Of a DNA stretch of 64,000 bases, positions 299 through 27,792 are shown piece after piece. Made by a program: the position numbers and the translations under genes. Source of the stretch: Pirellulales bacterium. Lineage in GTDB: Bacteria > Planctomycetota > Planctomycetia > Pirellulales > PALSA-1355. The DNA lies in contig CAVTBU010000006.1 in the NCBI GenBank assembly GCA_963733035.1, positions 237,665-301,664 of the forward strand, written 5' to 3'. The stretch's first letter is position 1; each line of letters opens with the position of its first letter. The notes beneath the pieces are model-generated. The model worked only from the letters and a program-made list of their open reading frames with translations, was not told the DNA's origin and made no database searches.

Positions 299-299
299 A

Positions 300-4144: not shown

Positions 4145-4233
4145 CTGAACGAGAGATCACAAGAAGGAGAAACGACGTTGGCAACTCGCATGCGACTCAA
4201 ACGCATACGCCCACTCCACATTCGGGGTCGTGG

Positions 4234-4305: not shown

Positions 4306-4333
4306 TTCGGCCAGCGATCGCGGCGGCGCGTAG

Positions 4334-4406: not shown

Positions 4407-4427
4407 AGAAACGAGGAACAACACGAA

Positions 4428-4500
4428 CGGGATCAAGGTGCTAGCGGCAGCATGCCTGGCTCTTAACCAGGTCGGTGAGGGTTCAAGTCCCTCTGATCCC
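4428..4500 (+). tRNA. tRNA-Lys(CTT)
   Basis: Acceptor gggatca/tgatccc. Loop CTCTTAA. T-loop TTCAAGT. Confidence 0.6.
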
Positions 4501-4630
4501 ACTGGAAACAGGCGAGAGGCACGAGGCCACAGGCTAGAGGGCGACCTTGAACCTCTACTGCTGACCTCTGGTCTCTCGCCTCAGGCCTCTGGCCTGTTTC
4601 GATCTTTGACAATTCGACCAGCGATTCGAC

Positions 4631-4697
4631 GCGCCCATGATGTAGCGGTAGCCTGCTGCCTTGCCATGGCGTGCGGGTTCAACTCCCGCTGGGCGCT
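4631..4697 (+). tRNA. Atypical short tRNA-like (Gly-GCC-like loop TTGCCAT), no variable region
   Basis: Acceptor gcgccca/tgggcgc is perfect. Only 67 nt. Possible pseudogene. Confidence 0.35.
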
Positions 4698-4704
4698 TCA
4701 ATTT

Positions 4705-4778
4705 CAGGGTGTGGGATAGCCTGGTAGTCCGCCTGCGTCGGGAGCAGGAGAGCGTCGGTTCAATTCCGACCACCCTGA
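4705..4778 (+). tRNA. tRNA-Pro(CGG)
   Basis: Acceptor cagggtg/caccctg. Anticodon stem cctgc/gcagg. Loop GTCGGGA. Confidence 0.5.
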
Positions 4779-4816
4779 CTTTTTGAGAACGCTCTGACCG
4801 GTACAATGAGCGAATC

Positions 4817-5134
4817 ATGAATTGGCTTACGCCGTGGACTCCGATTGTCGAAAGCGATCGCGCGGAAATGCTGACTACCGAACTTCGTCGCGAAGTTGGA
4901 GTCGGCCACGTGCTGTTCGGCATTCCGGTAAAACCAATTGCAATTCGCCAAGATTGCGACGACGTGCTCTTCGAGCTTCTTGATGGCTCGGGCCGATTCG
5001 CCGTCACTCACTTGACGTACGCTCAGCATCCCGAGCCAGATTCGCAATGGCCTGCAACTCGTCTCTGTGACGATTTGACTCAATTCGAGCGGAGCATCAT
5101 GCACGTCGATCATTCGACCGCGACCGGCTTATAG
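4817..5134 (+). CDS. Hypothetical protein embedded in the tRNA array
   Basis: 105-aa ORF between tRNAs. Confidence 0.4.
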   Translation: MNWLTPWTPIVESDRAEMLTTELRREVGVGHVLFGIPVKPIAIRQDCDDVLFELLDGSGRFAVTHLTYAQHPEPDSQWPATRLCDDLTQFERSIMHVDHSTATGL

Positions 5135-5151
5135 CGATCGACTCCAGCTCG

Positions 5152-5225
5152 GAGGGTGTAGCGAAGCCTGGCATCGCGCAAGCTCGGGGAGCTTGAGATC
5201 GCAGGTTCAAATCCTGCCACCCTGA
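5152..5225 (+). tRNA. tRNA-Pro(GGG)-like (G1-G72 mismatch)
   Basis: D-arm gcga/tcgc. Anticodon stem caagc/gcttg. Loop TCGGGGA. Confidence 0.45.
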
Positions 5226-5244
5226 CTCGAACGTCGTCGATTGT

Positions 5245-5793
5245 TCAGCGCTTCCAAATCGTTACGTCGCTGCTGATCGCGATCAATAGCGTTCGGCCAG
5301 TGTACGAAAAGCCAAACCCGCGAAGCTCACGCTCAATGGCTAGTTTCCAGAATCGTGAGGCAGGTGGATAGATGCTCTCGTACTTGCCAAGAAGCAAAAG
5401 ACTTGTGTCCGGCCAATCGATGGACAAGGCTTCGACGCCCCATCCGTCATCGGTCTGAGTCGGGAGGCCACCACCGACAAGTCCACAGACGCGAATCTCC
5501 CTTCCATCAAGTGGACCAAATCCGATGGCAGTCATGGCGTCTTTGCCGAACCACGATTCTTGATCTGATTCGTCACGATCTCGAGCGACTTTTTCGCCGG
5601 TGCGGCAATCGATGATTCCACGCCCTTGAGACGACAGTACCAGTAGCAGTTCAGAGTCGTCCGCAAAACCAATCTCAGTAAGTCCGCCAATTGCGACGGA
5701 CGCGACGAACGACCATGGCTCTGGCGGAGCGGTGACCGCAGCACGGCGAATTTTGTCTCGCACAGGTTCGAGGTGGTCCATAAGGTTTGCCAT
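5245..5793 (-). CDS. Hypothetical protein embedded in the tRNA array
   Basis: 182-aa ORF. Confidence 0.4.
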   Translation of the reverse strand: MANLMDHLEPVRDKIRRAAVTAPPEPWSFVASVAIGGLTEIGFADDSELLLVLSSQGRGIIDCRTGEKVARDRDESDQESWFGKDAMTAIGFGPLDGREIRVCGLVGGGLPTQTDDGWGVEALSIDWPDTSLLLLGKYESIYPPASRFWKLAIERELRGFGFSYTGRTLLIAISSDVTIWKR

Positions 5794-5836
5794 GGGTTCA
5801 TAGGATGGCTCGCCAGTATACCGGATTGATCAATAT

Positions 5837-5911
5837 TGCGGTGGGGCCTGTGTTGGTACAGGCAGGCGCCTGTTAAGCGCCCCTTCGCAGGTTCGATTCC
5901 TGCCGCCGCAG
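5837..5911 (+). tRNA. tRNA-Asn(GTT)
   Basis: D-stem gcct/aggc. Anticodon stem ggcgc/gcgcc. Loop CTGTTAA. Confidence 0.6.
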
Positions 5912-5933
5912 CTTTCTAGGGACGGAAGGGCAA

Positions 5934-6017
5934 GCCAATGGGCGATGGCAGCTGTTTCGAAAACAGTCGAGCGATGAGCCTTGAGGGTTCGACTCCCTCT
6001 CCTTCCGCTTCGTGCTC
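5934..6017 (+). tRNA. tRNA-Ser(CGA), class II
   Basis: Loop TTCGAAA. 16-nt variable arm. T-stem gaggg/ccctc. Confidence 0.55.
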
Positions 6018-6021
6018 TTGG

Positions 6022-6093
6022 CCGATCGGCAGAGGCGTCAGCCTTCCAAGCTGAACAGGCGGGTTCGATTCCCGCAGAGCACTTTCGATCAAT
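6022..6093 (+). tRNA. tRNA-Gly(TCC)
   Basis: Acceptor gtgctct/agagcac. Anticodon stem tcagc/gctga. Loop CTTCCAA. Confidence 0.6.
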
Positions 6094-6106
6094 CATTCGG
6101 GGATCG

Positions 6107-6177
6107 GCTAATGGTCGGCCGCCTGGCTTTGAACCAGGCTATGGTAGTTCGAATCTACCTCCCCGAGCTTGGAAGAC
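6107..6177 (+). tRNA. tRNA-Gln(TTG)
   Basis: Acceptor tcgggga/tccccga. Stem cctgg/ccagg. Loop CTTTGAA. Confidence 0.55.
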
Positions 6178-6184
6178 TACCGCC

Positions 6185-6262
6185 CTGCGCTCGATTGCCG
6201 CCCGGCAATCGTGCTCGGTTGCTGGTTTGATTCCTTCTCCCCGAACTCGGTGACAAAACATT
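6185..6262 (+). pseudogene. Degenerate tRNA-like element (T-stem not pairable). Related to 12700-12772.
   Basis: Shared ctaccgccctgcgctcg..gtgctcggttgctggtt. The hairpin has a CCC loop with compensatory stem changes between copies. Confidence 0.35.
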
Positions 6263-6336
6263 CCGGGGTAGCTGCTGCTGGTAGTGGCGCCTGGCTCTGA
6301 ACCAGGAGGTCGTTGGTTCGATTCCAACTCCCGGAG
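6262..6336 (+). tRNA. tRNA-Gln(CTG)
   Basis: Stem cctgg/ccagg. Loop CTCTGAA. T-stem gttgg/ccaac. Confidence 0.55.
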
Positions 6337-6356
6337 CTGTTTCGAACGACACGATC

Positions 6357-6442
6357 GGAAGTCATCCGGCCGGATGAGGAGCCTGTCTTGAAAACAGGTG
6401 GCGGCCTCGCGCCGCTTGTGGGTTCGAGTCCCACGGCTTCCG
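6357..6442 (+). tRNA. tRNA-Ser(TGA), class II
   Basis: Stem cctgt/acagg. Loop CTTGAAA. 20-nt variable arm. Confidence 0.55.
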
Positions 6443-6470
6443 CTCAACAGGTCGATTCGTTCAGCAACAC

Positions 6471-6541
6471 AGTCCCGTGGTCCAACGGCAAGACTCCTGC
6501 GTCACATCCAGGAAACGATGGTTCAACTCCATCCGGGACTA
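6471..6541 (+). tRNA. tRNA-Val(CAC)
   Basis: Acceptor agtcccg/cgggact. Loop GTCACAT. Same family as Val(GAC) at 7870. Confidence 0.5.
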
Positions 6542-6547
6542 CTCGAT

Positions 6548-6621
6548 GTCCAGGTACGCCAATTGGCAGAGCGGCACGGCTTAAACCCGCGCGGATGCCG
6601 GTTCGACTCCGGCCTTGGGCA
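6548..6621 (+). tRNA. Class I tRNA with anticodon TAA (Leu-type anticodon but no long variable arm)
   Basis: Loop CTTAAAC. Only 5-nt variable region. Confidence 0.4.
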
Positions 6622-6631
6622 CTGTCAACGC

Positions 6632-6704
6632 GGCTCGGTCGGCAACGGCAGACCACCTTGGCTTAGAACCAAGGATGCTGTGGGTTCGAATCCCACCTGA
6701 GCTA
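6632..6704 (+). tRNA. Class I tRNA with anticodon TAG (Leu-type anticodon, short variable arm)
   Basis: Stem cttgg/ccaag is perfect. Loop CTTAGAA. 73 nt. Confidence 0.45.
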
Positions 6705-6718
6705 TTTAGTAGAGACTC

Positions 6719-6793
6719 GTCCTCGTGGAGTAGTCTGGAGTGCTCGCCTGCCTGTCACGCAGGAGATCACGGGTTCAAATCCCGTCGGGGACG
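6719..6793 (+). tRNA. tRNA-Asp(GTC)
   Basis: Stem cctgc/gcagg. Loop CTGTCAC. Acceptor gtcctcg/cggggac. Confidence 0.6.
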
Positions 6794-6875
6794 CCTTTTG
6801 ATTGTTGTACGCGAAATCGTCTGTGGCGCGGAGTGTTCCGCAACGCCTCGACGAACTGCAACGCAACGTAAATCT

Positions 6876-6949
6876 GGCACGGTACGCCAATCGGCTGAGC
6901 GGCGAAGCTCAAACCTTCGTGTCTGCGGGTTCGACTCCCGCCTGTGCCA
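6876..6949 (+). tRNA. Class I tRNA with anticodon CAA (Leu-type anticodon, short variable arm)
   Basis: Stem cgaag/cttcg. Loop CTCAAAC. Confidence 0.45.
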
Positions 6950-6955
6950 CTGTTC

Positions 6956-7042
6956 GGGTTGTGCTCCTCGTGGCGGCCTGTAAAGCCGTTGTCACAAAAG
7001 AAGCGAGGTGGGCGACGAATGGTTCGATTCCTTCACAACCCA
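6956..7042 (+). tRNA. tRNA-Tyr(GTA)-like, class II, weak T-stem
   Basis: Acceptor gggttgt/acaaccc is perfect. Loop CTGTAAA. Long variable arm. T-stem has only 3 of 5 pairs. Confidence 0.4.
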
Positions 7043-7047
7043 ATTGA

Positions 7048-7120
7048 GGCCCGCTCGTCTATCGGTTGAGGACGCCAGCCTCTCAAGCTGGAAGGACGGG
7101 TTCGATTCCCGTGCGGGTCA
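7048..7120 (+). tRNA. tRNA-Glu(CTC)
   Basis: TCGTCTATCGG..GGAC D-arm. Stem ccagc/gctgg. Loop CTCTCAA. Confidence 0.6.
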
Positions 7121-7126
7121 CTGTAT

Positions 7127-7209
7127 GGCCAAGTGGTGTAACTGGTAAACACGCGACGCTCAGAACGTCGTGCCCTTGCGGCGTGGGAGTTCGAGTCTCC
7201 CCTTGGTCA
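7127..7209 (+). tRNA. tRNA-Leu(CAG), class II
   Basis: Stem cgacg/cgtcg. Loop CTCAGAA. 14-nt variable arm. T-loop TTCGAGT. Confidence 0.6.
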
Positions 7210-7226
7210 CTGAAATATTGAATTGA

Positions 7227-7295
7227 CGCAGGTGAGCCAGTGCTCAGCCGAGTTTCATAAGCTCAGCCCGTCGGGTGCGACACCCGAACCTGCAA
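7227..7295 (+). tRNA. tRNA-Met(CAT)-like with C1-A72 mismatch (initiator-like) and non-canonical T-loop TGCGACA
   Basis: Loop TTCATAA. Acceptor cgcaggt/acctgca. Short (69 nt). Confidence 0.35.
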
Positions 7296-7300
7296 CTTAC

Positions 7301-7376
7301 GGCCGGGTACGCAAACTGGCAAAGCGACGAGGTCGAGAGCCTCGTGATTTTGTGAGTTCGACTCTCACTCCGGTCA
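7301..7376 (+). tRNA. tRNA with anticodon GAG (Leu-GAG-like, 9-nt variable region)
   Basis: Stem cgagg/cctcg. Loop TCGAGAG. T-stem gtgag/ctcac. Confidence 0.45.
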
Positions 7377-7405
7377 CTTGAATGAGATTGCGGCCAAAAC
7401 TGATC

Positions 7406-7843
7406 CTACAGTGCGAGCACGCGGCACACCTCTCGAATCCAGATCTCACCGATCCATTCCAGGTCGGCATACGGAGAGATGCGTGAAGCGGTCCAGCCGC
7501 TTTCGTCGAGTACTCGCATCATGCCGGGTGCCGCCAAGGCGTTCGTTGTGTGGATGATCACTGGGCATGTCGGCGGTTTCGTCGCGAGAAAGTCGGCCAC
7601 ATCGCGTCCGGTGCCGGGGTCACGCATGACACCGCCGATCAATCGGTTGGGTCCGAGATCGTGATCGAGGCAGATGAGAATCGGTTCGCCGCAGTGAACC
7701 TTCAGCCAGACGATCATATCTGGTGCATTGTCGAACACAATTGATTCATGGCCTGGGCAGCGACTTGCGAGGCACGGCAACATTGCGGCGATCCGTTCCG
7801 GCTCGTCGTCAAGAATTGCGACTACTTTTGATTCGCTTGCCAT
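7406..7843 (-). CDS. Stand-alone receiver (REC/CheY-like) fold protein, possibly of the cyclic-phosphate-processing receiver type
   Basis: ILDDEPE acidic pocket, CLDHDLG candidate phospho-acceptor region, no output domain, 145 aa. Sits inside the tRNA array. Confidence 0.4.
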   Translation of the reverse strand: MASESKVVAILDDEPERIAAMLPCLASRCPGHESIVFDNAPDMIVWLKVHCGEPILICLDHDLGPNRLIGGVMRDPGTGRDVADFLATKPPTCPVIIHTTNALAAPGMMRVLDESGWTASRISPYADLEWIGEIWIREVCRVLAL

Positions 7844-7869
7844 GTCAACAAGTCTAACAAATCACATTC

Positions 7870-7942
7870 GATCCCGTGGTCCAACGGCTACGACGCCTGG
7901 ATGACACCCAGGAGGCAGATGGTTCAACTCCATCCGGGATCA
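7870..7942 (+). tRNA. tRNA-Val(GAC)
   Basis: Acceptor gatcccg/cgggatc is perfect. Stem cctgg/ccagg. Loop ATGACAC. Confidence 0.55.
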
Positions 7943-7952
7943 TTTGCGAATC

Positions 7953-8023
7953 GGTCTGTAGGTGTGTTCGGCGGCACACCTCCTCGGTAAGGAGGAAGGC
8001 CGGGTTCGACTCCCGGACGGACC
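7953..8023 (+). tRNA. tRNA-Thr(GGT)
   Basis: Stem cctcc/ggagg is perfect. Loop TCGGTAA. Confidence 0.5.
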
Positions 8024-8093
8024 TTCAACCGAGCACGCGACATAGGCGTGCCGCGAGCGCAGGGCGAAAGGAATCGAGATGGATAGAAGTGAG

Positions 8094-8167
8094 GGGCTGC
8101 TGGTCCAACGGCAAGACGCTTGGATTGAAGTCAGCGTCGATGGCAACGGCGGATCGACGCTCGTCAA
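8094..8167 (+). pseudogene. Degenerate tRNA-like fragment lacking a T-arm
   Basis: Acceptor and D region gggctgctggtccaacggcaaga match neighbouring tRNAs, but there is no TTCGA T-loop. Confidence 0.3.
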
Positions 8168-8173
8168 ATACAT

Positions 8174-8244
8174 GGGCTGCTCGTCCAACGGGAAGACGCC
8201 TGGCTTGCAACCAGGAAATCGGGGTTCGACTCCCCGGCGGTCCA
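8174..8244 (+). tRNA. tRNA-Ala(TGC)
   Basis: G3-U70 present. Stem cctgg/ccagg. Loop CTTGCAA. Confidence 0.6.
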
Positions 8245-8255
8245 CTGAATAAAAC

Positions 8256-8326
8256 GGGCTCATGGTCCAAAGGGAAGACATCAGGCTGGCAGTCTGAAGA
8301 TCCGGGTTCAATTCCCGGTGAGTCCA
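8256..8326 (+). tRNA. tRNA-Ala(GGC)
   Basis: G3-U70 present. Stem tcagg/tctga. Loop CTGGCAG. Confidence 0.55.
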
Positions 8327-8344
8327 CTGATACGGGAAACCTTT

Positions 8345-8647
8345 TTACATCGGAATACCGGCATCAATCGCAGCTTGTCGATTGTGGCCGGGTTCGAGAA
8401 GTGTCGTTCCTTGATAGACCTCGACGTTCGCGTCCATGAGATCAGAAAGAGGCAGCTCAACATAGACCTGGGTATTACGGTCGGTCTCGACAACGTTGAA
8501 CCACGGTTGTGCAACGAAACTGCGCACCTGGATTTCCAGTGACTCGCCGGGCAACAGCGTGAAGTCGTGAGGCCACGGCTCGACCCAAATGACGCGCAAT
8601 TGCGCTTCGTCGTTGGTCACGCCGATCTTTGCGAAGAACTCACTCAT
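8345..8647 (-). CDS. Hypothetical protein
   Basis: 100-aa ORF ending 43 bp from the IS copy. Confidence 0.4.
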   Translation of the reverse strand: MSEFFAKIGVTNDEAQLRVIWVEPWPHDFTLLPGESLEIQVRSFVAQPWFNVVETDRNTQVYVELPLSDLMDANVEVYQGTTLLEPGHNRQAAIDAGIPM

Positions 8648-8689
8648 TACCCTAGCGTATTGCGGAAGCGTACGACAAACAAGTGATTC

Positions 8690-10500
8690 GGAAGGTAGAT
8701 GCTATGGCAGCGGCGAGGGACTGCGTTAGGCTCCGAGTCACGAGGGATTGTTTTATCCGTTGTTTTGAGGAGCTCAATCATGGCCACTCGACCGCAAGAC
8801 TGCAGCACAACGAAGCCAGTACTGTTCCTGGGTCTCGAATTAGGGCAGCGAACCTGGAAGTTGGGGTTCACCGTGGGTTTGGGTCAGAAGCCGCGGCGAC
8901 GTGAGATCGCTGCCGGTTGCATTCAGGCACTGAAACGAGAGATCAATGAGAGTAAGCAACGTTTTGGTCTGCCTGCGGATGTGGAGGTGATTAGCTGTTA
9001 CGAGGCAGGCCGTGATGGGTTTTGGCTGCATCGTTGGCTGGTGTCTGAGAACGTCACAAACTTGGTGGTTGACTCGTCTAGCATTCAAGTGCCGCGGCGG
9101 CAGCGACGGGCCAAGACCGATCGTCTGGATTTGGAACAATTGTTGACCATGTTGGTGCGCTGGCATCAGGGCGAGTCGAAAGTCTGGAGCGTGGTGACGG
9201 TGCCGAGTGAAGCGGAAGAGGACGTTCGGCATTTGCATCGCGAGTTGGAAACGCTGCGGGCGGAACAGACCAGCCACATCAATCGAATCAAGGGGCTGTT
9301 GATCGGTTGCGGCGTGGTGATTGATGTGAACCGCTGGCTACCGAAACGGCTCAAAGCAATACGGCTTTGGAATGGCTCGCCGTTGACCAGCGATTTGCGG
9401 CAACGGGTATTGCGGGAGTTCGAGCGGATGCAGGTGGTCAATCGACAGGTTCGCGAGCTGGAAAAGGAGCGTGCCGCCCGGATTCGCAGCAACGAAACTG
9501 ACAAGAGCGTCGCCCAGGTGCGGACGTTGTTGGGCGTGAAGGGCATCGGCGTCAACAGCGCGTGGATGTACGTGCAGGAGGTGTTTGGCTGGCGAAAGAT
9601 CAAGAATCGTCGTCAATTGGGTGCGCTCGTGGGGCTGACCGGCAGTCCGTATAGCAGCGGCAACTTGGAGCGCGATCAGGGAATTACAAAGGCTGGAAAC
9701 CGCCGGATGCGAACAATGGCTGTCGAAATCGCCTGGGGATGGTTGGCATTCCAACCCGGCAGCGATCTGAGCCGTTGGTATCACGATCGATTCGCGGCCG
9801 GAAACAAGCGTCTTCGTCGCATTGGAATTGTGGCGCTGGCAAGAAAGCTGTTGGTGGAGTTGTGGAAATACCTGGAGACCGGCGTGCCGCCTTGCAACGC
9901 GGAGCTGACCGAGTGGGAGGACAAGATTCACTACACCCCTTCCCTTACGCCGGCGTAGCGATTGGATCGGTGCGAGTATGGAGCGTCTGAACGACTGACG
10001 TCGAGACTGGAAAGCGACCGAGTATCCGGCGGGTACGAGTTAGGCTCACCGAAAGGTAGATGGGATCGCTTTCATTATGGCTTCCCGAGAGCGTCCAGGA
10101 CGCATAGGGCATAGGGTGATCGGCGATGATGCCGGCACGGATAGAAGCTAGTCGTTGGCCTCGGCCACAACGATCAGCGGAAGCCGCCAGTCATGACGTT
10201 GAACCGACAGAAGAAGTGTTTTGAGGAATGGCAGGACAAATGAATGTGCATCCCAGCACGGCTCCAGCCGCGGCGTGCGGCCAGAGCCGTCACGGAATCA
10301 TTCACCCGCCCTGACCTGGCTATCCCTTGTTGGGTTGCTCTTCAGCAGAGCTCAACTCCGTTTCACCAGGCAGGCGAAAGTATATCACGACTCAACGTTG
10401 GATGAGGAGCTTGACAGGTGCGCATCCATAGAAGCCGGATACGGTTGGCCGGGCCGCTCTGCTAAGGCGGTTCCCGCTCGTCGGGATGAGGGTTCGAATC
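8690..10500 (+). mobile_element. IS110-family insertion sequence, copy 1. The 1811-bp repeat unit is identical apart from 1 nt to 25952-27762.
   Basis: Repeat boundaries defined by alignment of the two copies. The transposase is followed by a ~540-bp non-coding 3' region. No terminal inverted repeats, as expected for IS110/IS1111. Confidence 0.75.
8780..9958 (+). CDS. IS110-family transposase (DEDD N-terminus plus a C-terminal transposase_20-like region)
   Basis: N-terminal VLFLGLELGQRTWKLGF and C-terminal LLGVKGIGVNSAWMYVQEVFGW..ALARKLLVELWKYL motifs. Start moved to MATRPQD. Confidence 0.8.
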   Translation: MATRPQDCSTTKPVLFLGLELGQRTWKLGFTVGLGQKPRRREIAAGCIQALKREINESKQRFGLPADVEVISCYEAGRDGFWLHRWLVSENVTNLVVDSSSIQVPRRQRRAKTDRLDLEQLLTMLVRWHQGESKVWSVVTVPSEAEEDVRHLHRELETLRAEQTSHINRIKGLLIGCGVVIDVNRWLPKRLKAIRLWNGSPLTSDLRQRVLREFERMQVVNRQVRELEKERAARIRSNETDKSVAQVRTLLGVKGIGVNSAWMYVQEVFGWRKIKNRRQLGALVGLTGSPYSSGNLERDQGITKAGNRRMRTMAVEIAWGWLAFQPGSDLSRWYHDRFAAGNKRLRRIGIVALARKLLVELWKYLETGVPPCNAELTEWEDKIHYTPSLTPA

Positions 10501-10554
10501 GGGCACCGCGGCAAAGCCGTGGTCTACCTTCCGCTGGTGAAAAGGCTCCTCCAA

Positions 10555-10917
10555 TCACTTCGCCTGTTCCACGTCGATCGCGGCCCGCAGCTCCTCAACA
10601 TTCGCGAATTGTTGAAGTGGAAGATCGAACGAGTAGTCGAGATCAATGATTCGAAGGGGGATGCCGAGATGCCTTTGAACGATCAGCGCGGCACTTAGGG
10701 CGGCGTCTGTCATCCCCGATATCGAGATCGCGTCGCGTTTCCGGCTGAGGTCGACCATCGTGAAGTCGTCGCCCTCAGAATAGTCCGCTTCAATTGGGAT
10801 TCCGATGGACGTATTATATCGAATCTCACCGAATCCCCTGACCGACTTGAAAATGTCTTGCAACGCCTCGACGGTAAATAGCCGTTTGTCGTCGCTGAAC
10901 AGCAGAAGACTTTGCAT
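10555..10917 (-). CDS. Hypothetical protein, candidate immunity-type partner just downstream of the nuclease-like toxin C-terminus
   Basis: 120-aa acidic ORF 15 bp downstream of 10933. Confidence 0.35.
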   Translation of the reverse strand: MQSLLLFSDDKRLFTVEALQDIFKSVRGFGEIRYNTSIGIPIEADYSEGDDFTMVDLSRKRDAISISGMTDAALSAALIVQRHLGIPLRIIDLDYSFDLPLQQFANVEELRAAIDVEQAK

Positions 10918-10932
10918 AGCAATTACGTACTC

Positions 10933-12260
10933 CTAGGGCTCGAGTCGCACCTTGCCGGGCACGGATAGTTCCTTGAGCAGGGCTTCAAAAGCTGACTTCG
11001 CCTCGGGCGAGTTGGTGATGATTTCGATTGATTTAAAAGGCGTTTCGCCACTCTTGATAATTGTGCGAACTCTCGTCAAATCGTCACGCACTTTGTCCAG
11101 AATCACGGCCCGGATGTCCTCTCGGATAGATGAGCCGGGCACATAAGGACTCTTGCCGGCCTTCGCTACGTGCTTCGCTTCAAGAATTATCGTATCCCGG
11201 TATCCATCGATTGCAAAAGACTGGCCGCCGCCTGATATCGTGTAGTTGTAGGGGCCGGTCTGCTTGATTTCATATTGACTCGCTGCCGATTTCGTGGGTG
11301 TAGGCTTGCGAGGAAGCTTCGCGACGAAGTCATCAAGAGTGCCTCCCACTTTTCCAGGAACTTTGCGAAGCGCCCTGCCGAGCACAGCCTTCCCGAGTCG
11401 CAGGATTGCCGGTGCGGCCACGACGGCGGATGCAATTTCAAACTCAATGCCGGTTGACTGCAAACCACTCGGTGTGCCGCCCCTGGCTACGGCATGCCCG
11501 ACTTCCTCGATACCCTTGCCACCGACGATCGTCTCTGCCGGGGTGAACGCCGAATGCTGTTTCGCTGGGCGTGATAGCTCTTAATGCGTTTCGGCAATTC
11601 CTTGATTTGGCGACGGGTGTGATCCAATGCATTCTTTGTCTGCCACCAAGCGTGTGCCAGGTCCAGCATGTGTGAGTCGGAACCGTCGGACTCGTCGCTT
11701 CCGCCGCTACCGGGCCCCTTGCTGCGGGGTGAGCGACTCTTGCCGGTGTTGATTCCGCCCCCACCGCCCCCCTTATTGATCCACTGCCCGCCGATCGGCG
11801 TTCCCTTGGGCGCCCGGGGATGATCGGCCTCGTTCCATTCGACAACAAGTGAGTCTGATTCAGTGAATCGCTCGATCGCATGCCACGTCCTGCTGTCCCG
11901 TGCCTCGATCTGTTGAATCGCACGCAGTTTGTCTTCCGCCTCGGCCGAGATCTGAGCTGCCCATTCCAGAAGCTCACGATCGCGACGAGCGTTGGCTTCG
12001 GCGGATTGCAGCTCGCGCAGCTCCTTTGCCTGTCGATACGAGAATCGTGCTAGCCGCCCCAACTCCTCGCGTTGAGCTTTCGCCTGTGCCTCGGGAGGCA
12101 TCATTCGTGGAATCGGCCTACCGAGAATCGCTTGTGCAAATAGCCAACCTTCGCTGGGCTGCGAAACTCCGGCGACATCCCGTGTCTTTTTGTAACGGTC
12201 CATGACGCTCCTCTTCATGGGTGCGAGAAAAAGAGCCCGCACCCGGTGCGCGCTTCGCAA
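10933..12260 (-). pseudogene. Paralog B of the 352..1749 gene, disrupted by at least two frameshifts. Its C-terminal domain is PD-(D/E)xK nuclease-like.
   Basis: Three consecutive reading frames (11487..12260, 11444..11977, 10933..11463) each match successive parts of paralog A (RDRELLEW / DHPR motif / HHWVPIGV ~ MHWITPV). The first frame switch is at the C/G homopolymer tract near 11755-11775. The C-terminus has AIDGYRD..ILEAKH. Confidence 0.6.
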
Positions 12261-12290
12261 GCGCGCACCGATTACGGGCTCTTTGGATAC
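12224..12290 (-). terminator. Hairpin-in-hairpin plus U-run on the minus strand, mirror copy of 300-350, immediately 5' of paralog B
   Basis: agagcccgtaatcgg..ccgggtgcgggctct with inner stem tgcgcgc/gcgcgca. The inner stem differs from copy A by compensatory changes. Confidence 0.55.
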
Positions 12291-12365
12291 TCGTTGTCAG
12301 GGGCCTACTGGCACGAGGACGTGCAGTCGAGCTCTTCGGATACCCCGGTCACTCATGGTGACCTT
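12268..12365. repeat. Right arm of the inverted repeat (partner of 208-298)
   Basis: Reverse-complement alignment. Confidence 0.8.
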
Positions 12366-12525
12366 GCCCAGCGATCAGCTCGCCGATTGATTCGGAACCT
12401 AGCACAAAGGGCGGCCTAGTTTCTAGTCGAAGATTTAATGGAGTGATTGGTCTGAGCAAATACGTCGCGCGAACCGTGCGGCGTGGATCTGTTTCCTTTT
12501 CTAATGTCTCAGCTCGCCTCGATGG

Positions 12526-12605
12526 TGAAACGGACGATCACTCCTTGCTTCTAACAAGGCCCGGTATTTCTGGGAGACGCGGGGGTTCGAATCCTGGTCG
12601 GGGCA
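12526..12605 (+). tRNA. tRNA-Arg(TCT)-like with an enlarged variable region and an imperfect T-stem
   Basis: Acceptor gcctcga/tcggggc. Stem ccttg/caagg. Loop CTTCTAA. Related to 27793-27865. Confidence 0.4.
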
Positions 12606-12699
12606 TTTTGAAGAAGAGTGGTTGGTGGTCAGTGGCTAGTGGTCAGTGAAGCAAGGGGCGGCGAACACAAAGCGTGCTCGTCTGTCCTACCTGTGGCCT

Positions 12700-12772
12700 G
12701 TGGTCTACCGCCCTGCGCTCGGCAGATGCCCATCTGCCGTGCTCGGTTGCTGGTTCAATTCCTCGGCGAGGC
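12700..12772 (+). pseudogene. Degenerate tRNA-like element
   Basis: Related to 6185-6262 and to the 3' part of tRNA-Arg(TCG) at 29219. T-stem disrupted. Confidence 0.3.
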
Positions 12773-12793
12773 ACTGAGAAGGCGGCGAGTTGA

Positions 12794-13444
12794 ATGATCA
12801 TGTTGCGAGCGATCCTAACAGCGTTGAGACGATTCCTGTTTGGCCAGCCTGTGGCCAGCAGGGTGACCGCGAAGAAACCGTCGGCAGAAGCCGTCGCGTG
12901 TGCGGTCGTTCATTCGACGACGTCGGCGGATCGCAACGAAGGGAGGCCTACCATGAACGCAGCCTATGACAAACTATGCGAACACCTGACCAACCAGAAC
13001 GTCGGCTTTTGGTCGCGCAGCGAGGACTTGTCGATCTGCACCGACTTTCGGGGCGAGGTCGGTACGTACCGGATCTTCGCTCGGATTGATGCTGATGACA
13101 GCTTGTTCCAGGTCTTCGGTCATTCGCCGGTTCGCGTTCCGCCAGGCTCGCGGCCGGCGATCGCCGAGGCCGTGGCGCGGATCAACTGCGGTCTGAAGGT
13201 CGGCAAGTTCGAGATGGATTGTGACGAGGGCGAGCTGCGGTTCCAGGCGGCCCAGATCCTGCCCGACGACGATCTCGACGAGCAGACGATTCGGCGACTG
13301 ATTGGTACGACCATGTCGATGTTGAACATTTACCTTCCGGCCATCTTGTCGGTCATCTACGGCAACGAACTGCCGAAGGATGCCGTCAGACACGCAGAGC
13401 CCGGGCGGTATGTGTCCGACGAAAACGAGCGCGGTGAGGCCTGA
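12794..13444 (+). CDS. YbjN-like protein (T3SS-chaperone-like fold), copy 1
   Basis: 216 aa, ~93% identical to 29313..29957. Two-lobed pattern GTYRIFARIDADDSLFQVFGHSP / ELRFQAAQILPDD fits the YbjN family. Confidence 0.45.
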   Translation: MIMLRAILTALRRFLFGQPVASRVTAKKPSAEAVACAVVHSTTSADRNEGRPTMNAAYDKLCEHLTNQNVGFWSRSEDLSICTDFRGEVGTYRIFARIDADDSLFQVFGHSPVRVPPGSRPAIAEAVARINCGLKVGKFEMDCDEGELRFQAAQILPDDDLDEQTIRRLIGTTMSMLNIYLPAILSVIYGNELPKDAVRHAEPGRYVSDENERGEA

Positions 13445-13457
13445 TCACCGCGCATTT

Positions 13458-13530
13458 GTCCTCGGAGTGTGCCGGATTCGCACGCGACCCTGCGAAGGTC
13501 GAGGACCAGGTTCAACTCCTGGCGAGGACA
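13458..13530 (+). tRNA. tRNA with anticodon GCG (Arg-GCG, unusual isoacceptor), copy 1
   Basis: Acceptor gtcctcg/cgaggac is perfect. Stem cgacc/ggtcg. Loop CTGCGAA. T-stem ccagg/cctgg. Confidence 0.5.
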
Positions 13531-13577
13531 TTTTGGAATGTCGCGGGATTGTGTACCGTAGTAGCGGGAGACACTCA

Positions 13578-14042
13578 ATGAACTTGCAGCATGAAAATCA
13601 CGGTCCCTTGCCGACGCGCGAGGACATTAATGTCTTCGACTCGCTTGACGAACGTTGCGCTTGCGATCACTTTTTGGGCAAGAACATGGACGAGGCTCAG
13701 GCACTGTTCAGTGATAATTTCTTGCGTTACCAGGAGGATTTGGTGTTTATGGGGCCTCGTGCCTTCCGCTTCTACGTTCATGCTGCCATGCAATACCTCA
13801 TGAGCCCCGATGCCTCAGGTGACGGCGATGCCGCCAACAGTTTCGCAGGGCTACTTGAATTCAGACTTGAACATGAGAGGAACGAAGTGCAGCCAGTGGC
13901 AGGTGAGCTAGCGCGGATATGCAATTACCTCTTCGAAAATATTAGTCGATTCGAATGTGAGCCATCCATCTATGGCGATGTTGGCGCTCGTTATGCAGCT
14001 CTGAATAGCGCGCTCGAACAACTCGCCACGACACAGCCCTAA
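13578..14042 (+). CDS. Hypothetical protein
   Basis: Approximately 154-aa ORF starting MNLQHENH. Confidence 0.4.
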   Translation: MNLQHENHGPLPTREDINVFDSLDERCACDHFLGKNMDEAQALFSDNFLRYQEDLVFMGPRAFRFYVHAAMQYLMSPDASGDGDAANSFAGLLEFRLEHERNEVQPVAGELARICNYLFENISRFECEPSIYGDVGARYAALNSALEQLATTQP

Positions 14043-14086
14043 CCCAACATGGTCCGGCTCGTGCAGCAGCATCAATTCTCAAATCT

Positions 14087-14158
14087 GACGCTGAAGCCAG
14101 ACGGCGTGGCAACTGCCTGCAAAGCAGTTCACAGCGGGTTCGACTCCCGCCGGCGTCT
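14087..14158 (+). tRNA. tRNA-Cys(GCA), copy 1
   Basis: Acceptor gacgctg/cggcgtc. D-stem gcca/tggc. Stem actgc/gcagt. Loop CTGCAAA. Confidence 0.6.
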
Positions 14159-14775: not shown

Positions 14776-15690
14776 ATGAATATCTACATCATCAAGACCA
14801 TCAAGATCCGCAGCTACGAAATGGGTCTGTACTTCCGCGACGGCGAGTTCCGTGGCTTGCTGCGCGAAGGTCGCCACTGGTTCGTAGATCCGCTGGGGAA
14901 GGCCAAGATCGAGGTCGTATCGCAGCGGCAGCCGTGGCTGGCGCACGAGAAGCTCGACGTGATCTCGCGCTCGGGTGCGCTCGAGGACCGCGCGGTGGTG
15001 CTGGACCTGAAGGACTACGAACGGGCTTTGGTCTGGATCGATGGTCACTTCAGCCACATCCTGCCGCCGGGCCTGTACGCCTACTGGACGGCTCTGCGTG
15101 ACGTGAAGGTCGAGGTGGTCGATGCCCGCAAGGCGCGGTTCGAGCACCCGGATCTGAAGGTCATCCTGCAGTCGCCGCTGGTGGACCGTGTGCTGTCGCT
15201 GGCGACGGTGCAGGCGCACCACATGGGCGTGTTGTTCATCGACGGCGACTTCGTCGAGACGTTGCCGCCGGGCCGCTACGCCTTCTGGAAGAACCTGGCT
15301 CAGGTCAAGTTCGTCGAGGAGGATATGCGCGAGGCGATGTTCGACGTGGCCGGCCAGGACATCATGACGGCCGATAAGGTGACGCTGCGAATGACCGAGC
15401 TGATGGAGAAGTTCCCGGTCCACGTGGTGTGCGGCTGGACCGGCAACAGCGAGGCGATCGCGCTGAAGCACTACCTCCAGGTCACCGACGACCATTTCGA
15501 GCGGGCCGTGCGGGGCGAGGCCGAGATCGGGCCGGAAGTCACGCCGACTGTTACCAACACTCTCGCCAACACAACGGCGCAAAAGCGGCGCAGCATGCGC
15601 ACGCAGGGGGTAGCGGCGAGCAGCAGGCGGCTCAGGGCACCAACGCAAAAGCCCCGGGATTGCCGGGGCCTGCGACTTCCCGCGATATAG
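14776..15690 (+). pseudogene. Chimeric ORF: the N-terminal ~205 aa of the SPFH-associated protein family (compare 31445..32557) fused in frame at about 15394 to the last ~70 codons of a tyrosine integrase
   Basis: Protein matches the 31397 ORF up to ADKVTLRM, then matches the integrase C-terminus TELMEKFP.HVVCGW.GNSEAIALKHYLQVTDDHF. Confidence 0.6.
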
Positions 15691-25951: not shown

Positions 25952-27762
25952 GGAAGGTAGATGCTATGGCAGCGGCGAGGGACTGCGTTAGGCTCCGAGT
26001 CACGAGGGATTGTTTTATCCGTTGTTTTGAGGAGCTCAATCATGGCCACTCGACCGCAAGACTGCAGCACAACGAAGCCAGTACTGTTCCTGGGTCTCGA
26101 ATTAGGGCAGCGAACCTGGAAGTTGGGGTTCACCGTGGGTTTGGGTCAGAAGCCGCGGCGACGTGAGATCGCTGCCGGTTGCATTCAGGCACTGAAACGA
26201 GAGATCAATGAGAGTAAGCAACGTTTTGGTCTGCCTGCGGATGTGGAGGTGATTAGCTGTTACGAGGCAGGCCGTGATGGGTTTTGGCTGCATCGTTGGC
26301 TGGTGTCTGAGAACGTCACAAACTTGGTGGTTGACTCGTCTAGCATTCAAGTGCCGCGGCGGCAGCGACGGGCCAAGACCGATCGTCTGGATTTGGAACA
26401 ATTGTTGACCATGTTGGTGCGCTGGCATCAGGGCGAGTCGAAAGTCTGGAGCGTGGTGACGGTGCCGAGTGAAGCGGAAGAGGACGTTCGGCATTTGCAT
26501 CGCGAGTTGGAAACGCTGCGGGCGGAACAGACCAGCCACATCAATCGAATCAAGAGGCTGTTGATCGGTTGCGGCGTGGTGATTGATGTGAACCGCTGGC
26601 TACCGAAACGGCTCAAAGCAATACGGCTTTGGAATGGCTCGCCGTTGACCAGCGATTTGCGGCAACGGGTATTGCGGGAGTTCGAGCGGATGCAGGTGGT
26701 CAATCGACAGGTTCGCGAGCTGGAAAAGGAGCGTGCCGCCCGGATTCGCAGCAACGAAACTGACAAGAGCGTCGCCCAGGTGCGGACGTTGTTGGGCGTG
26801 AAGGGCATCGGCGTCAACAGCGCGTGGATGTACGTGCAGGAGGTGTTTGGCTGGCGAAAGATCAAGAATCGTCGTCAATTGGGTGCGCTCGTGGGGCTGA
26901 CCGGCAGTCCGTATAGCAGCGGCAACTTGGAGCGCGATCAGGGAATTACAAAGGCTGGAAACCGCCGGATGCGAACAATGGCTGTCGAAATCGCCTGGGG
27001 ATGGTTGGCATTCCAACCCGGCAGCGATCTGAGCCGTTGGTATCACGATCGATTCGCGGCCGGAAACAAGCGTCTTCGTCGCATTGGAATTGTGGCGCTG
27101 GCAAGAAAGCTGTTGGTGGAGTTGTGGAAATACCTGGAGACCGGCGTGCCGCCTTGCAACGCGGAGCTGACCGAGTGGGAGGACAAGATTCACTACACCC
27201 CTTCCCTTACGCCGGCGTAGCGATTGGATCGGTGCGAGTATGGAGCGTCTGAACGACTGACGTCGAGACTGGAAAGCGACCGAGTATCCGGCGGGTACGA
27301 GTTAGGCTCACCGAAAGGTAGATGGGATCGCTTTCATTATGGCTTCCCGAGAGCGTCCAGGACGCATAGGGCATAGGGTGATCGGCGATGATGCCGGCAC
27401 GGATAGAAGCTAGTCGTTGGCCTCGGCCACAACGATCAGCGGAAGCCGCCAGTCATGACGTTGAACCGACAGAAGAAGTGTTTTGAGGAATGGCAGGACA
27501 AATGAATGTGCATCCCAGCACGGCTCCAGCCGCGGCGTGCGGCCAGAGCCGTCACGGAATCATTCACCCGCCCTGACCTGGCTATCCCTTGTTGGGTTGC
27601 TCTTCAGCAGAGCTCAACTCCGTTTCACCAGGCAGGCGAAAGTATATCACGACTCAACGTTGGATGAGGAGCTTGACAGGTGCGCATCCATAGAAGCCGG
27701 ATACGGTTGGCCGGGCCGCTCTGCTAAGGCGGTTCCCGCTCGTCGGGATGAGGGTTCGAATC
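25952..27762 (+). mobile_element. IS110-family insertion sequence, copy 2
   Basis: Identical to 8690-10500 apart from 1 nt. Confidence 0.75.
26042..27220 (+). CDS. IS110-family transposase (copy 2)
   Basis: One amino-acid difference from copy 1. Confidence 0.8.
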   Translation: MATRPQDCSTTKPVLFLGLELGQRTWKLGFTVGLGQKPRRREIAAGCIQALKREINESKQRFGLPADVEVISCYEAGRDGFWLHRWLVSENVTNLVVDSSSIQVPRRQRRAKTDRLDLEQLLTMLVRWHQGESKVWSVVTVPSEAEEDVRHLHRELETLRAEQTSHINRIKRLLIGCGVVIDVNRWLPKRLKAIRLWNGSPLTSDLRQRVLREFERMQVVNRQVRELEKERAARIRSNETDKSVAQVRTLLGVKGIGVNSAWMYVQEVFGWRKIKNRRQLGALVGLTGSPYSSGNLERDQGITKAGNRRMRTMAVEIAWGWLAFQPGSDLSRWYHDRFAAGNKRLRRIGIVALARKLLVELWKYLETGVPPCNAELTEWEDKIHYTPSLTPA

Positions 27763-27792
27763 CCTTGCCTTCCGCTCGTGAACGATACGTGA

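What the first reader, a model, noticed from the sequence alone, without database searches (positions are those of the whole stretch)
8690..10500. Two identical IS110-family copies with a 540-bp 3' non-coding region (bridge-RNA candidate) ending inside a tRNA-Ser(GCT)-like fragment
The 1811-bp units at 8690-10500 and 25952-27762 differ at a single nucleotide, which indicates recent activity. The transposase has only ~90 bp upstream but 540 bp downstream of non-coding sequence, an IS1111-like layout. By established work on IS110/IS621, this region could encode the bispecific bridge (seeker) RNA. The last ~100 bp of the unit fold like the D-arm, anticodon arm (loop CTGCTAA, Ser-GCT), long variable arm and half T-arm of a class II tRNA. 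Identity stops exactly within GGTTCGAATC. Both copies sit at the distal ends of tRNA arrays, so the element may target or recombine at tRNA T-loop sequences.
Basis: partly seen in the sequence, partly recalled or inferred. Interest (0 to 1): 0.6.

Follow-up and report, generated by a model that had tools for sequence, protein, structure and literature searches.

The report
RNA-guided IS splitting a tRNA-Ser gene
Two near-identical copies of an IS110-family RNA-guided insertion sequence each sit inside a tRNA-Ser(GCT) gene of a tRNA gene array, and the guide RNA encoded after the transposase gene matches that exact spot in the tRNA gene; this is a known kind of element with an unusual natural target.

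Summary
Units 8690-10500 and 25952-27762 differ at one base.

The repeat unit is not the insertion sequence (IS). It is a 1736-bp IS110-family element (8699-10434, or 8697-10432, because an AG core is shared) plus both halves of a tRNA-Ser(GCT) gene that it splits between nucleotides 9 and 10. Removing the element from copy 2 restores an 88-nt tRNA-Ser(GCT). The predicted empty site, GGAAGGT-AG-CCGGATACGG, is the normal uninterrupted gene in more than 100 metagenome contigs, nearly always inside a conserved ~40-tRNA array.

The 3' non-coding region does encode a seekRNA/bridge RNA (about 9997-10200). Its helices show compensatory changes across 56 relatives. One internal loop carries GUAUCCGGC, the reverse complement of the right flank. 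It also carries AAGGUAGAUG, which is the left flank plus the IS end. In relatives these two guides change with their own flanks (0 of 3000 permutations do as well). A second loop matches the IS ends.

The ideas that the IS ends in a tRNA fragment and targets the T-loop are not. This is a new member of a known kind with an unusual natural target. Interest is moderate.

The parts
8690..8698 (+). Copy 1: 5' piece of the split tRNA-Ser(GCT) gene (GGAAGGT acceptor strand + AG; AG is the shared core)
   Evidence: It pairs with ACCTTCC at 10526-10532. The same 9 nt start the uninterrupted tRNA-Ser(GCT) genes in 118 of 122 metagenome/viral hits.
8699..10434 (+). Copy 1 of the IS (1736 bp). The boundaries are ambiguous by the 2-nt AG core, so 8697-10432 is equivalent.
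   Evidence: Ends match the conserved LE/RE motifs of 79 related loci. The empty site GGAAGGT-AG-CCGG is confirmed.
8702..8707 (+). Left subterminal inverted repeat CTATGG (partner CCATAG at 10426-10431)
   Evidence: Read directly from the sequence. CTATG/CATAG is conserved in nearly all the relatives whose ends were found.
8780..9958 (+). Transposase/recombinase gene, 392 aa (copy 1 has G172)
   Evidence: NF033542 171 bits against cut-off 140. PF02371. Identical to database protein P0001. Acidic residues and Ser293 are conserved in alignment A2.
9997..10201 (+). Predicted seekRNA/bridge RNA (approximate ends; two-domain fold closed by an outer stem)
   Evidence: MFE fold z = -2.8. Consensus helices have compensatory changes in 20 of 26 pairs, 95.8% of cells paired, 0/500 shuffles as good.
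10022..10030 (+). Target guide 'T' GUAUCCGGC, the reverse complement of G+CCGGATAC (core G + tRNA D-arm, 10434-10442)
   Evidence: The same alignment columns in relatives are complementary to their own right flanks.
10053..10062 (+). Target guide 'B' AAGGUAGAUG = left flank AAGGT + core AG + first 3 nt of the IS (8692-8701)
10110..10114 (+). Candidate donor guide CAUAG (complement of left-end CTATG), 5' side of the second internal loop
   Evidence: Lies in the conserved block 10101-10151 and in alignment A1. The pairing is inferred; it needs wobble pairs in relatives and breaks at the fifth position.
10139..10148 (+). Candidate donor guide GGAUAGAAG+C (= right end ATAGAAG + first base of the right flank), 3' side of the second loop
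   Evidence: GGATAGAAG (GAATAGAAG in two) is present in all 56 aligned sequences. The next base can pair with the bottom strand of the first right-flank base in 46 of 47 loci.
10285..10372 (+). Second conserved non-coding block in the distal 3' region, with a hairpin; function unknown
   Evidence: Close to identical, by eye, with L203, whose transposase is only 71% identical. Absent from L004 and only partly alignable in L079. Fold.
10411..10416 (+). TTGACA, a -35-like box facing out of the right end
   Evidence: CTTGAC is conserved 16-18 nt before the end of CATAGAAG in almost all relatives. A role in a circle-junction promoter is inferred from Siddiquee 2024.
10435..10534 (+). Copy 1: 3' piece of the split tRNA-Ser(GCT) gene; the 3' half of the T-arm is replaced by a 23-nt hairpin (10501-10523), so this gene would stay defective even after excision
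   Evidence: (no spliced version of copy 1 is called a tRNA).
25952..25960 (+). Copy 2: 5' piece of the split tRNA-Ser(GCT) gene
25961..27696 (+). Copy 2 of the IS (tnp 26042-27220 with R172; guides at 27284-27292 and 27315-27324)
   Evidence: Identical to copy 1 except 26555.
27697..27775 (+). Copy 2: 3' piece of the split tRNA-Ser(GCT) gene, intact
   Evidence: Joining 25952-25960 to 27697 onward gives an 88-nt tRNA-Ser(gct) in ARAGORN.

Best explanation
Each repeat unit is a tRNA-Ser(GCT) gene of a large tRNA array, interrupted between tRNA nucleotides 9 and 10 by a 1736-bp IS110-family RNA-guided insertion sequence.

The element has an IS1111-like layout:
- an 81-bp left end;
- a 392-aa DEDD/Ser recombinase gene;
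- a 476-bp right end whose first ~240 nt encode a seekRNA/bridge RNA.

One internal loop of that RNA carries two guides. GUAUCCGGC pairs with the top strand of the target to the right of the crossover (G-CCGGATAC). AAGGUAG pairs with the bottom strand to the left of it, and continues as AUG into the element's own left end, a handshake-type contact. A second loop carries CAUAG and AUAGAAG, which match the element's subterminal repeats.

By analogy with ISEc11 and IS621, the inferred mechanism is as follows. The excised circle (...CATAGA-AG-ATGCTATGG...) and the target (GGAAGGT-AG-CCGGATAC) are held together by this RNA in a recombinase tetramer. They are recombined at the shared AG core, without target duplication and in one orientation.

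Shown here: the element's boundaries, the empty site, the RNA structure, and the guide-flank complementarity with its co-variation in relatives.
Inferred: the circle intermediate, the junction promoter, the RNA ends and current activity.

The target is a sequence signature of the tRNA-Ser(GCT) gene in a conserved, widely distributed tRNA array. The element therefore behaves like IS1111-type elements that specialise on a repeated, dispensable sequence.
For: Boundaries:
- LE AGAT[AG]CTATG and RE CTTGAC-N16-18-CATAGAAG are conserved in relatives from many phyla. Elements are 1551-1764 bp.

Empty site:
- 118 of 122 hits to GGAAGGT-N(0-6)-CCGGATACGGTTGG have exactly AG as spacer. 103 of the hits are called tRNA-Ser(gct).
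- Removing the IS from copy 2 restores an 88-nt tRNA-Ser(GCT).

Guides:
- 10022-10030 and 10053-10062 match the flanks.
- The same alignment columns match each relative's own flanks. The mean longest duplex is 7.9 against 3.3 when flanks are permuted. Mean left-flank identity is 2.5 against 0.53. Both give 0/3000.
- A 71% relative at a different site carries correspondingly different guides on the same scaffold.
- An 88% relative in other genomes splits tRNA-Ser(GCT) at the same position with the same guides. Removing it restores the tRNA in L205 and L211.

Structure:
- 26 consensus pairs, 95.8% of cells paired, 20 pairs with compensatory changes, 0/500 shuffles, slid controls 26-50%.
- The order 'top-strand complement 5' of bottom-strand complement' is the one reported for IS1111-type seekRNAs (PMC11187229).
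- Cross-loop contact: 46 of 47 loci, as for IS621 handshake guides (PMC11208158).

Protein:
- NF033542 above its cut-off.
Against: - No expression, circle-junction or transposition data exist for this element.
- Rfam 15 has no matching family, so the RNA is identified only by my own alignment.
- In the window's own row, the loop-closing stem is shifted by 2-3 columns relative to the consensus alignment.
- The donor-loop pairing is only partial: 5 nt on one side, 7 nt on the other. It cannot be tested by covariation because the IS ends hardly vary.
- The junction promoter predicted for this copy is poor: TTGACA, 19-nt spacer, TGCTAT. No sigma-70-like promoter was found in the integrated state.
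- Copy 2 carries G172R at a conserved position.
- A third, decayed copy in a sister array is as diverged as its flanks. At least one insertion is therefore old and was inherited with the array rather than newly targeted.
Confidence: 0.88

Rival explanations
1. The two copies did not arise by two RNA-guided insertions. One ancestral tRNA-Ser::IS was copied with its array by segmental duplication, or a second array was acquired. The IS copies were later homogenised by gene conversion, or one replaced the other by homologous recombination.
For: A third array on another contig of the same assembly carries the IS at the same site, and that copy is as diverged (95%) as its flanks (89-98%). The two window arrays look like a partly duplicated canonical array, with decayed members on complementary sides. 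Identity between the window copies also covers the 66 nt of tRNA to the right of the IS.
Against: The flanks of the two window copies are 80-98% identical or unalignable, yet the IS copies differ at 1 of 1811 bases. This needs either a recent insertion or a conversion tract that stops just where the tRNA gene ends on the left. The element family demonstrably reaches this site in other genomes. This rival concerns history only. It does not change what the element is.
Confidence: 0.3
2. One reading: the IS is the whole 1811-bp unit, its last ~100 bp are a tRNA-like module belonging to the element, and it recombines at tRNA T-loop sequences.
For: Identity between the copies does run to 10500, inside GGTTCGAATC.
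Against: In all related elements whose right end was found, the element ends at CATAGAAG, within about 13 nt. The 9 nt at the left edge of the unit complete the same tRNA. The uninterrupted tRNA exists widely. The guides match the D-arm side of the gene, not the T-loop. Copy 2 continues as a normal T-arm and acceptor strand, whereas copy 1 has a private 23-nt replacement.
Confidence: 0.03
3. The insertion is an intron-like element of a functional split tRNA: it is transcribed with the tRNA and removed at the RNA level.
For: CTATGG and CCATAG at the two borders could pair and bring the tRNA halves together.
Against: The same borders occur in relatives inserted at non-tRNA sites. The encoded protein is a DEDD recombinase, not an intron maturase or homing endonuclease. 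No group I or II intron or other Rfam family is detected. Position 9/10 is not a known bacterial tRNA intron site (own knowledge).
Confidence: 0.02

Closest known systems
IS1111-type insertion sequences with a 3' seekRNA (ISEc11, ISPa11, ISKpn4/ISPst6; Siddiquee et al. 2024, PMC11187229)
   Same: Short left end and long non-coding region downstream of the transposase gene. Subterminal inverted repeats. No target duplication and a single orientation. The guide RNA has the top-strand complement 5' of the bottom-strand complement. Closely related elements are naturally re-programmed to different sites. A -35 box in the right end points outward.
   Different: The transposase is 392 aa, against 330-350. 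The inverted repeat is only 6 bp perfect, against 11-13. The terminal extensions are not 7 and 3 bp. Protein identity to the classical plasmid-borne family members is at most about 30%. The target is inside a tRNA gene rather than a REP, an attC site, a Tn21 end or a short linear site.
IS621 bridge RNA system (Durrant et al. 2024, PMC11208160; Hiraizumi et al. 2024, PMC11208158)
   Same: One RNA with two internal loops, one matching the target and one matching the element's own ends. Each loop reads both strands around a 2-nt core. There is handshake-type cross pairing between loops and the non-cognate DNA. The recombinase has DEDD and Ser residues.
   Different: Here the RNA lies 3' of the gene, not 5'. 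The guide order within the loop is reversed. The core is AG rather than CT. The proteins align only weakly, over the C-terminal domain (E about 1e-4).
ISPpu9/ISPpu10 of Pseudomonas putida, REP-targeting IS110-family elements (PMC12288879; bioRxiv 10.64898/2026.03.19.712850)
   Same: Specialised on a multi-copy conserved genomic sequence. ISPpu9 has a small RNA gene downstream of the transposase gene.
   Different: Different target class and a distant protein. I did not compare the sequences directly.
Genomic islands and prophages integrated in tRNA genes by tyrosine integrases (own knowledge)
   Same: They use a conserved tRNA gene as the landing site.
   Different: Those integrate at the 3' part of the gene and rebuild it from an attP copy, so the tRNA stays functional. 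This element inserts at the 5' part (nucleotides 9/10), duplicates only the AG core, and leaves the gene split.

Membership tests
IS110 family (ISfinder sense) / NCBIfam NF033542 'IS110 family RNA-guided transposase' | The protein matches the family model over its full length, above the curated cut-off. | tested here: met
   171.1 bits against cut-off 140; residues 17-369 match profile positions 2-342 of 343. PF02371 scores 45.9 against 21.3. PF01548 scores only 22.9 against 29.
IS110 family | Catalytic DEDD residues in a RuvC-like N-terminal domain, plus a conserved Ser in the C-terminal domain. | tested here: inconclusive
   E20 (D in one relative), E75, D98, D114, D117 and S293 are invariant or nearly so in alignment A2. 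I did not map them residue by residue onto IS621 D11/E60/D102/D105/S241. The N-terminal half does not align to the PDB entries.
IS110 family | Site- and orientation-specific insertion without target duplication, at a short core shared by the element junction and the target. | tested here: met
   AG is present once in the empty site and at both junctions. The site and orientation are the same in the window (two copies), L205, L211 and L214.
IS110 family | A non-coding RNA with an internal loop whose two sides are complementary to opposite strands of the target. | tested here: met
IS110 family | A second loop of the same RNA complementary to the element's own ends (donor). | tested here: inconclusive
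   AUAGAAG matches the right end. CAUAG is complementary to the left-end CTATG. The two flank a covarying hairpin. The ends are too conserved for a covariation test. The only supporting covariation is the handshake base (46 of 47 loci).
IS110 family | A circular intermediate with abutted ends that creates a promoter. | not testable with these tools
   A -35 box is conserved in the right end. The modelled junction for this copy has a 19-nt spacer. No read data are available.
IS1111 group | The long non-coding region and the guide RNA lie downstream of the transposase gene. | tested here: met
   81-83 bp upstream against 476 bp downstream. The RNA maps to about 9997-10200.
IS1111 group | Subterminal inverted repeats of 11-13 bp (7-17 bp in Durrant 2024). 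| tested here: not met
   Only CTATGG/CCATAG (6 bp) is perfect; the neighbouring positions are imperfect.
IS1111 group | Terminal extensions of 7 (or 6) bp on the left and 3 bp on the right beyond the repeats. | tested here: not met
   3 and 3 bp, or 5 and 1 bp, depending on where the AG core is assigned.
IS1111 group | A transposase of 330-350 aa related to that of IS1111 over its full length. | tested here: not met
   392 aa. Hits to enterobacterial plasmid IS110-family genes are 23-31% identical over 45-80% of the protein. No ISfinder reference set was available for a phylogeny.
IS1111 group | [quoted passage not shown] | tested here: met
   T at 10022-10030, B at 10053-10062. The order is the same in relatives.
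tRNA-Ser(GCT) gene (class II tRNA) | A complete cloverleaf with acceptor stem, D-arm, GCT anticodon, long variable arm and T-arm once the insertion is removed. | tested here: met
   Copy 2 gives an 88-nt tRNA-Ser(gct) in ARAGORN. Copy 1 does not: the 3' strand of its T-arm is replaced.

The most novel reading that the evidence does not exclude
This IS lineage is a dedicated parasite of a horizontally spreading ~40-tRNA array. That array also occurs on an IMG/VR viral contig and carries an HNH endonuclease gene. The guide RNA is programmed to a 15-nt signature of the array's tRNA-Ser(GCT), so the element uses a redundant tRNA gene as a safe harbour and travels with the array. Because excision of such elements can be precise, insertion and excision could also switch the array's tRNA-Ser(GCU) supply off and on.
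Probability: 0.35. Interest if true: 0.55.

Novelty: new member of a known kind. Interest (0 to 1): 0.42.

Why it matters
This is a clean natural example in which all parts of an RNA-guided recombination system can be read from sequence alone: the element ends, the 2-nt core, both target guides, a candidate donor loop and a handshake base. It comes from a deep-branching clade (at most about 30% identity to the studied enzymes) that combines an IS1111-like layout with short inverted repeats and a larger recombinase.

Its relatives form a ready-made series of naturally re-programmed guide/target pairs, which is useful for learning the targeting rules of 3'-encoded bridge RNAs.

The target, the 5' part of a tRNA gene inside a conserved tRNA array, did not turn up as an IS110/IS1111 target in the literature search I made. 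It also links two kinds of mobile DNA.

For genome annotation, it shows that the '1811-bp IS' and the 'missing tRNA-Ser(GCT)' of these arrays are one and the same locus.

Tried and rejected
- **Rfam 15, permissive mode, on 8300-11000:** no bridge-RNA, tRNA or intron family matched.
- **blastn of the unit against phage and plasmid collections:** nothing in phages, and only weak hits within the transposase-coding part (65-74% identity over 131-300 nt) in Burkholderiaceae plasmids.
- **First splice attempt:** it used coordinates 30 nt off and gave no tRNA. It was corrected.
- **A 4-nt TAGA core** (empty site GGAAGGTAGAAGCCGG): rejected. None of the 122 hits has that spacer, and ARAGORN shifts the acceptor stem for that construct.
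- **Exact look-up of the identical protein's contig:** failed. The organism is therefore inferred only as a probable Planctomycetota/Pirellulales member, from a 67% relative named from a Pirellulales MAG and a Pirellulales locus among the closest genome hits.
- **Fixed-register scoring of the T guide:** it understated the signal, because some subgroups are shifted by 1 nt. It was replaced by a register-free score.
- **Long-range stems closing the donor domain and the whole RNA:** seen in the single-sequence fold and by eye in Burkholderiales relatives. MAFFT misaligns them between clades, so they were not tested formally. I did not build a covariance model.
- **Sigma-70 scan of the integrated element:** no promoter found.
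- **PDB search:** only distant C-terminal matches, so no structure prediction was run.
Full report
**1. Observation**

A base-by-base comparison confirms that 8690-10500 and 25952-27762 are collinear. They have one mismatch (9293 G versus 26555 A), and similarity is lost immediately outside (repeat family D1).

The only long ORF is 8780-9958 (392 aa), with a GAGGAG Shine-Dalgarno sequence 7 nt upstream. It matches:
- Pfam PF02371;
- NCBIfam NF033542 'IS110 family RNA-guided transposase' over its full length, at 171 bits against a cut-off of 140.

The mismatch changes Gly172 to Arg in copy 2. That column holds only G, S or A in 12 relatives.

The window is bacterial chromosome: kdpA/B/D, cytochrome b, a Ser/Thr kinase and brxL are present. 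It holds 45 tRNA genes.

**2. The repeat unit is a split tRNA gene plus an IS**

The unit starts with GGAAGGT. This is the exact complement of ACCTTCC (10526-10532), and it pairs with one G-T wobble to GCCTTCC (27767-27773) just beyond the unit.

Joining the first 9 nt of copy 2 to the sequence from 27697 onward gives an 88-nt tRNA-Ser(GCT) in ARAGORN. That tRNA begins at the first base of the unit. No spliced version of copy 1 is called a tRNA, because the 3' strand of its T-arm is replaced by a 23-nt hairpin at 10501-10523. This private lesion is why identity between the copies stops inside GGTTCGAATC.

**3. True ends of the element**

A scan of one genome per species found 189 stretches encoding relatives, and the best 79 loci were kept. 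The closest have 58% protein identity. Multi-copy genomes define elements of about 1.55-1.76 kb. Nearly all relatives whose ends were found share:
- a left end AGAT[A/G]CTATG;
- a right end CTTGAC-N16-18-CATAGAAG.

The window element has AGATGCTATGG from 8697 and CTTGACAGGTGCGCATCCATAGAAG ending at 10434.

Because AG occurs at both junctions, the insertion is 1736 bp with a shared AG core. The predicted empty site is GGAAGGT-AG-CCGGATAC.

I tested this with the pattern GGAAGGT-N(0-6)-CCGGATACGGTTGG.
- 118 of 122 hits in metagenome and viral contigs have exactly AG as spacer.
- 103 of the hits are called tRNA-Ser(gct).
- An alternative 4-nt TAGA core had no support.

In the longer contigs the uninterrupted gene sits in a conserved array of up to about 43 tRNA genes. 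The order around it is most often ...Ala(tgc)-Ala(ggc)-Ser(gct)-Arg(tct)-His..., with variants. That is the position of both IS copies in the window.

**4. The guide RNA**

The 3' non-coding region contains two matches to the junctions:
- GTATCCGGC at 10022-10030, the reverse complement of G+CCGGATAC (core G plus right flank);
- AAGGTAGATG at 10053-10062, identical to the left junction (AAGGT + AG + ATG).

The same arrangement is found in relatives. A 7-10-nt complement of [G + right flank] lies 45-68 nt after the stop codon in most relatives, later in some. About 30 nt further on lie 2-5 nt of left flank followed by AGAT.

Closely related Burkholderiales copies differ in just these segments, in step with their flanks. 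Examples are GCAGCCGTT, GCCGCCGTT, GCGCCAGTT and GCGCCCACC.

In a permutation test over 32 distinct guide sets:

| Measure | Own flank | Permuted flanks | Permutations as good |
|---|---|---|---|
| Mean longest guide/right-flank duplex | 7.9 nt | 3.3 nt | 0/3000 |
| Mean contiguous left-flank identity | 2.5 | 0.53 | 0/3000 |

A MAFFT alignment of 56 non-redundant regions (A1) gives an RNAalifold consensus in which the two guides form the two sides of an internal loop. That loop lies between a closing stem and an inner hairpin. A second hairpin is flanked by ...CAUAG... and ...GGAUAGAAG....

On that structure:
- 95.8% of cells are standard pairs;
- 20 of 26 pairs show compensatory changes;
- no shuffle of 500 reaches the observed values;
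- sliding the partners drops pairing to 26-50%.

The order 'top-strand complement first' is the one Siddiquee et al. report for IS1111-type seekRNAs.

**5. Donor loop and handshake**

AUAGAAG equals the right end, and CAUAG is complementary to the left-end CTATG. Both lie in the block 10101-10151. This is the only part of the non-coding region that BLAST finds in relatives with under 50% protein identity.

The base after AUAGAAG is C here and G, U or A elsewhere. It can pair with the bottom strand of the first base of the right flank in 46 of 47 loci. Conversely, the target-loop guide runs 3 nt into the element's left end. This cross-pairing resembles the handshake guides of IS621. The donor-loop assignment remains an inference.

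**6. Other genomes**

- **88% relative (JGI samples).** It occurs on 24 contigs. In L205 and L211 it splits a different allele of tRNA-Ser(GCT) at the same position, inside arrays, with the same guides. Removing it restores the tRNA. Some contigs have right flanks CCGTATAC or CCGTATAT. These are either near-cognate sites or assembly chimeras across the repeat.
- **71% relative (L203).** It is at a non-tRNA site and carries guides ATGTCCCC and AAAAGATG, which match its own flanks on the same scaffold.
- **Third copy (L214).** It lies on another contig of the same assembly. It is 95% identical, its transposase gene is broken, and its right end plus 5 nt of the tRNA are deleted. It sits at the same site of a third array whose flanks are 89-98% identical to the window arrays. 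At least one insertion is therefore old.

The two window copies are almost identical while their flanks are diverged. This points to recent transposition or to gene conversion, and I cannot separate the two.

**7. Classification**

The element is a member of the IS110 family in the ISfinder/NCBI sense. Its layout is IS1111-like (Durrant 2024; Siddiquee 2024). It fails three IS1111 criteria:
- the repeats are only 6 bp perfect;
- the terminal extensions are not 7 and 3 bp;
- the protein is 392 aa.

It is at most about 30% identical to the plasmid-borne classical members, and it aligns to IS621 and ISCro4 only in the C-terminal domain. Rfam has no matching family.

NCBI already names a 67% relative 'IS110 family RNA-guided transposase [Pirellulales bacterium]'. 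The kind is therefore known. What is unusual is the target. A full-text search found no paper that combines IS110-family bridge RNAs with tRNA-gene targets.

**8. Verdict**

- The bridge-RNA idea is supported, and the RNA is now localised.
- The claims about the tRNA fragment and the T-loop target are wrong. The element sits inside a complete tRNA-Ser(GCT) gene, at the acceptor/D-arm junction that its guide RNA specifies.

Noticed in passing
window 3792-8327, 12516-14158 and 24526-30819; loci L082, L090, L098, L146, L153, L135, L214, L200: The window's tRNA genes belong to a conserved array of up to about 43 tRNA genes. The gene order is largely shared, with variants: Phe-Glu-Pro-Ile-Lys-Ile(tat)-Lys ... 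Ala-Ala-Ser(gct)-Arg(tct)-His-[gap]-Trp-Thr-Arg-Arg-Arg-Cys. The array recurs in many metagenome contigs and on one IMG/VR viral contig. The window appears to hold a partly duplicated, split version of it on either side of the kdp operon.
   Followed up: partly
window 27984-28580 (+); L214 5124-5720: An HNH endonuclease gene (PF01844) lies between tRNA-His and tRNA-Trp of the array. A gap of about 650-800 bp at the same place in many other arrays suggests that a gene there is a conserved part of the array.
   Followed up: partly
window 25601-25689 vs 8256-8327; 12516-12605 vs 27793-27865; 10501-10523; 24526-24617: One paralogue of several array tRNAs carries a 17-23-nt replacement or insertion in the variable-loop or T-arm region: Ala(ggc) copy 2, Arg(tct) copy 1 and Ser(gct) copy 1. 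A fourth gene, called Cys, is 92 nt long and unlike the other two Cys genes. These could be decaying duplicates or a small-insertion process; I did not resolve which.
   Followed up: partly
window 10285-10372: A block of about 90 nt in the distal 3' non-coding region of the IS is close to identical, by eye, with L203, whose transposase is only 71% identical. It is absent from L004 and only partly alignable in L079. It folds into a hairpin (z = -2.1). Its function is unknown, and it lies outside the predicted guide RNA.
   Followed up: partly
window 10555-11463 (-): A gene with a Tox-REase-2 toxin domain (176 aa) and a neighbouring 120-aa ORF sit between the split tRNA-Ser and tRNA-Arg(tct) of array copy 1. 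In copy 2 and in other arrays these two tRNA genes are about 5-25 bp apart.
   Followed up: no
window 218-333 and 12248-12363: A 116-nt inverted repeat (87% complementary) brackets the whole first array. It was not examined.
   Followed up: no
window 15393-15704 and 40090-40400: A direct repeat of about 310 nt (92-93% identity); the second copy abuts a minus-strand tRNA-Glu(ctc) at 40401-40474. It was not examined.
   Followed up: no
L210 2114 onward; L213 1804 onward: Copies of the 88% relative have right flanks CCGTATAC and CCGTATAT instead of CCGGATAC. These are either insertions at near-cognate sites or assembly chimeras across the repeated IS.
   Followed up: no
window 35025-36692 (-): A BrxL-like Lon protease gene (BREX defence component) is present downstream of the arrays.
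   Followed up: no
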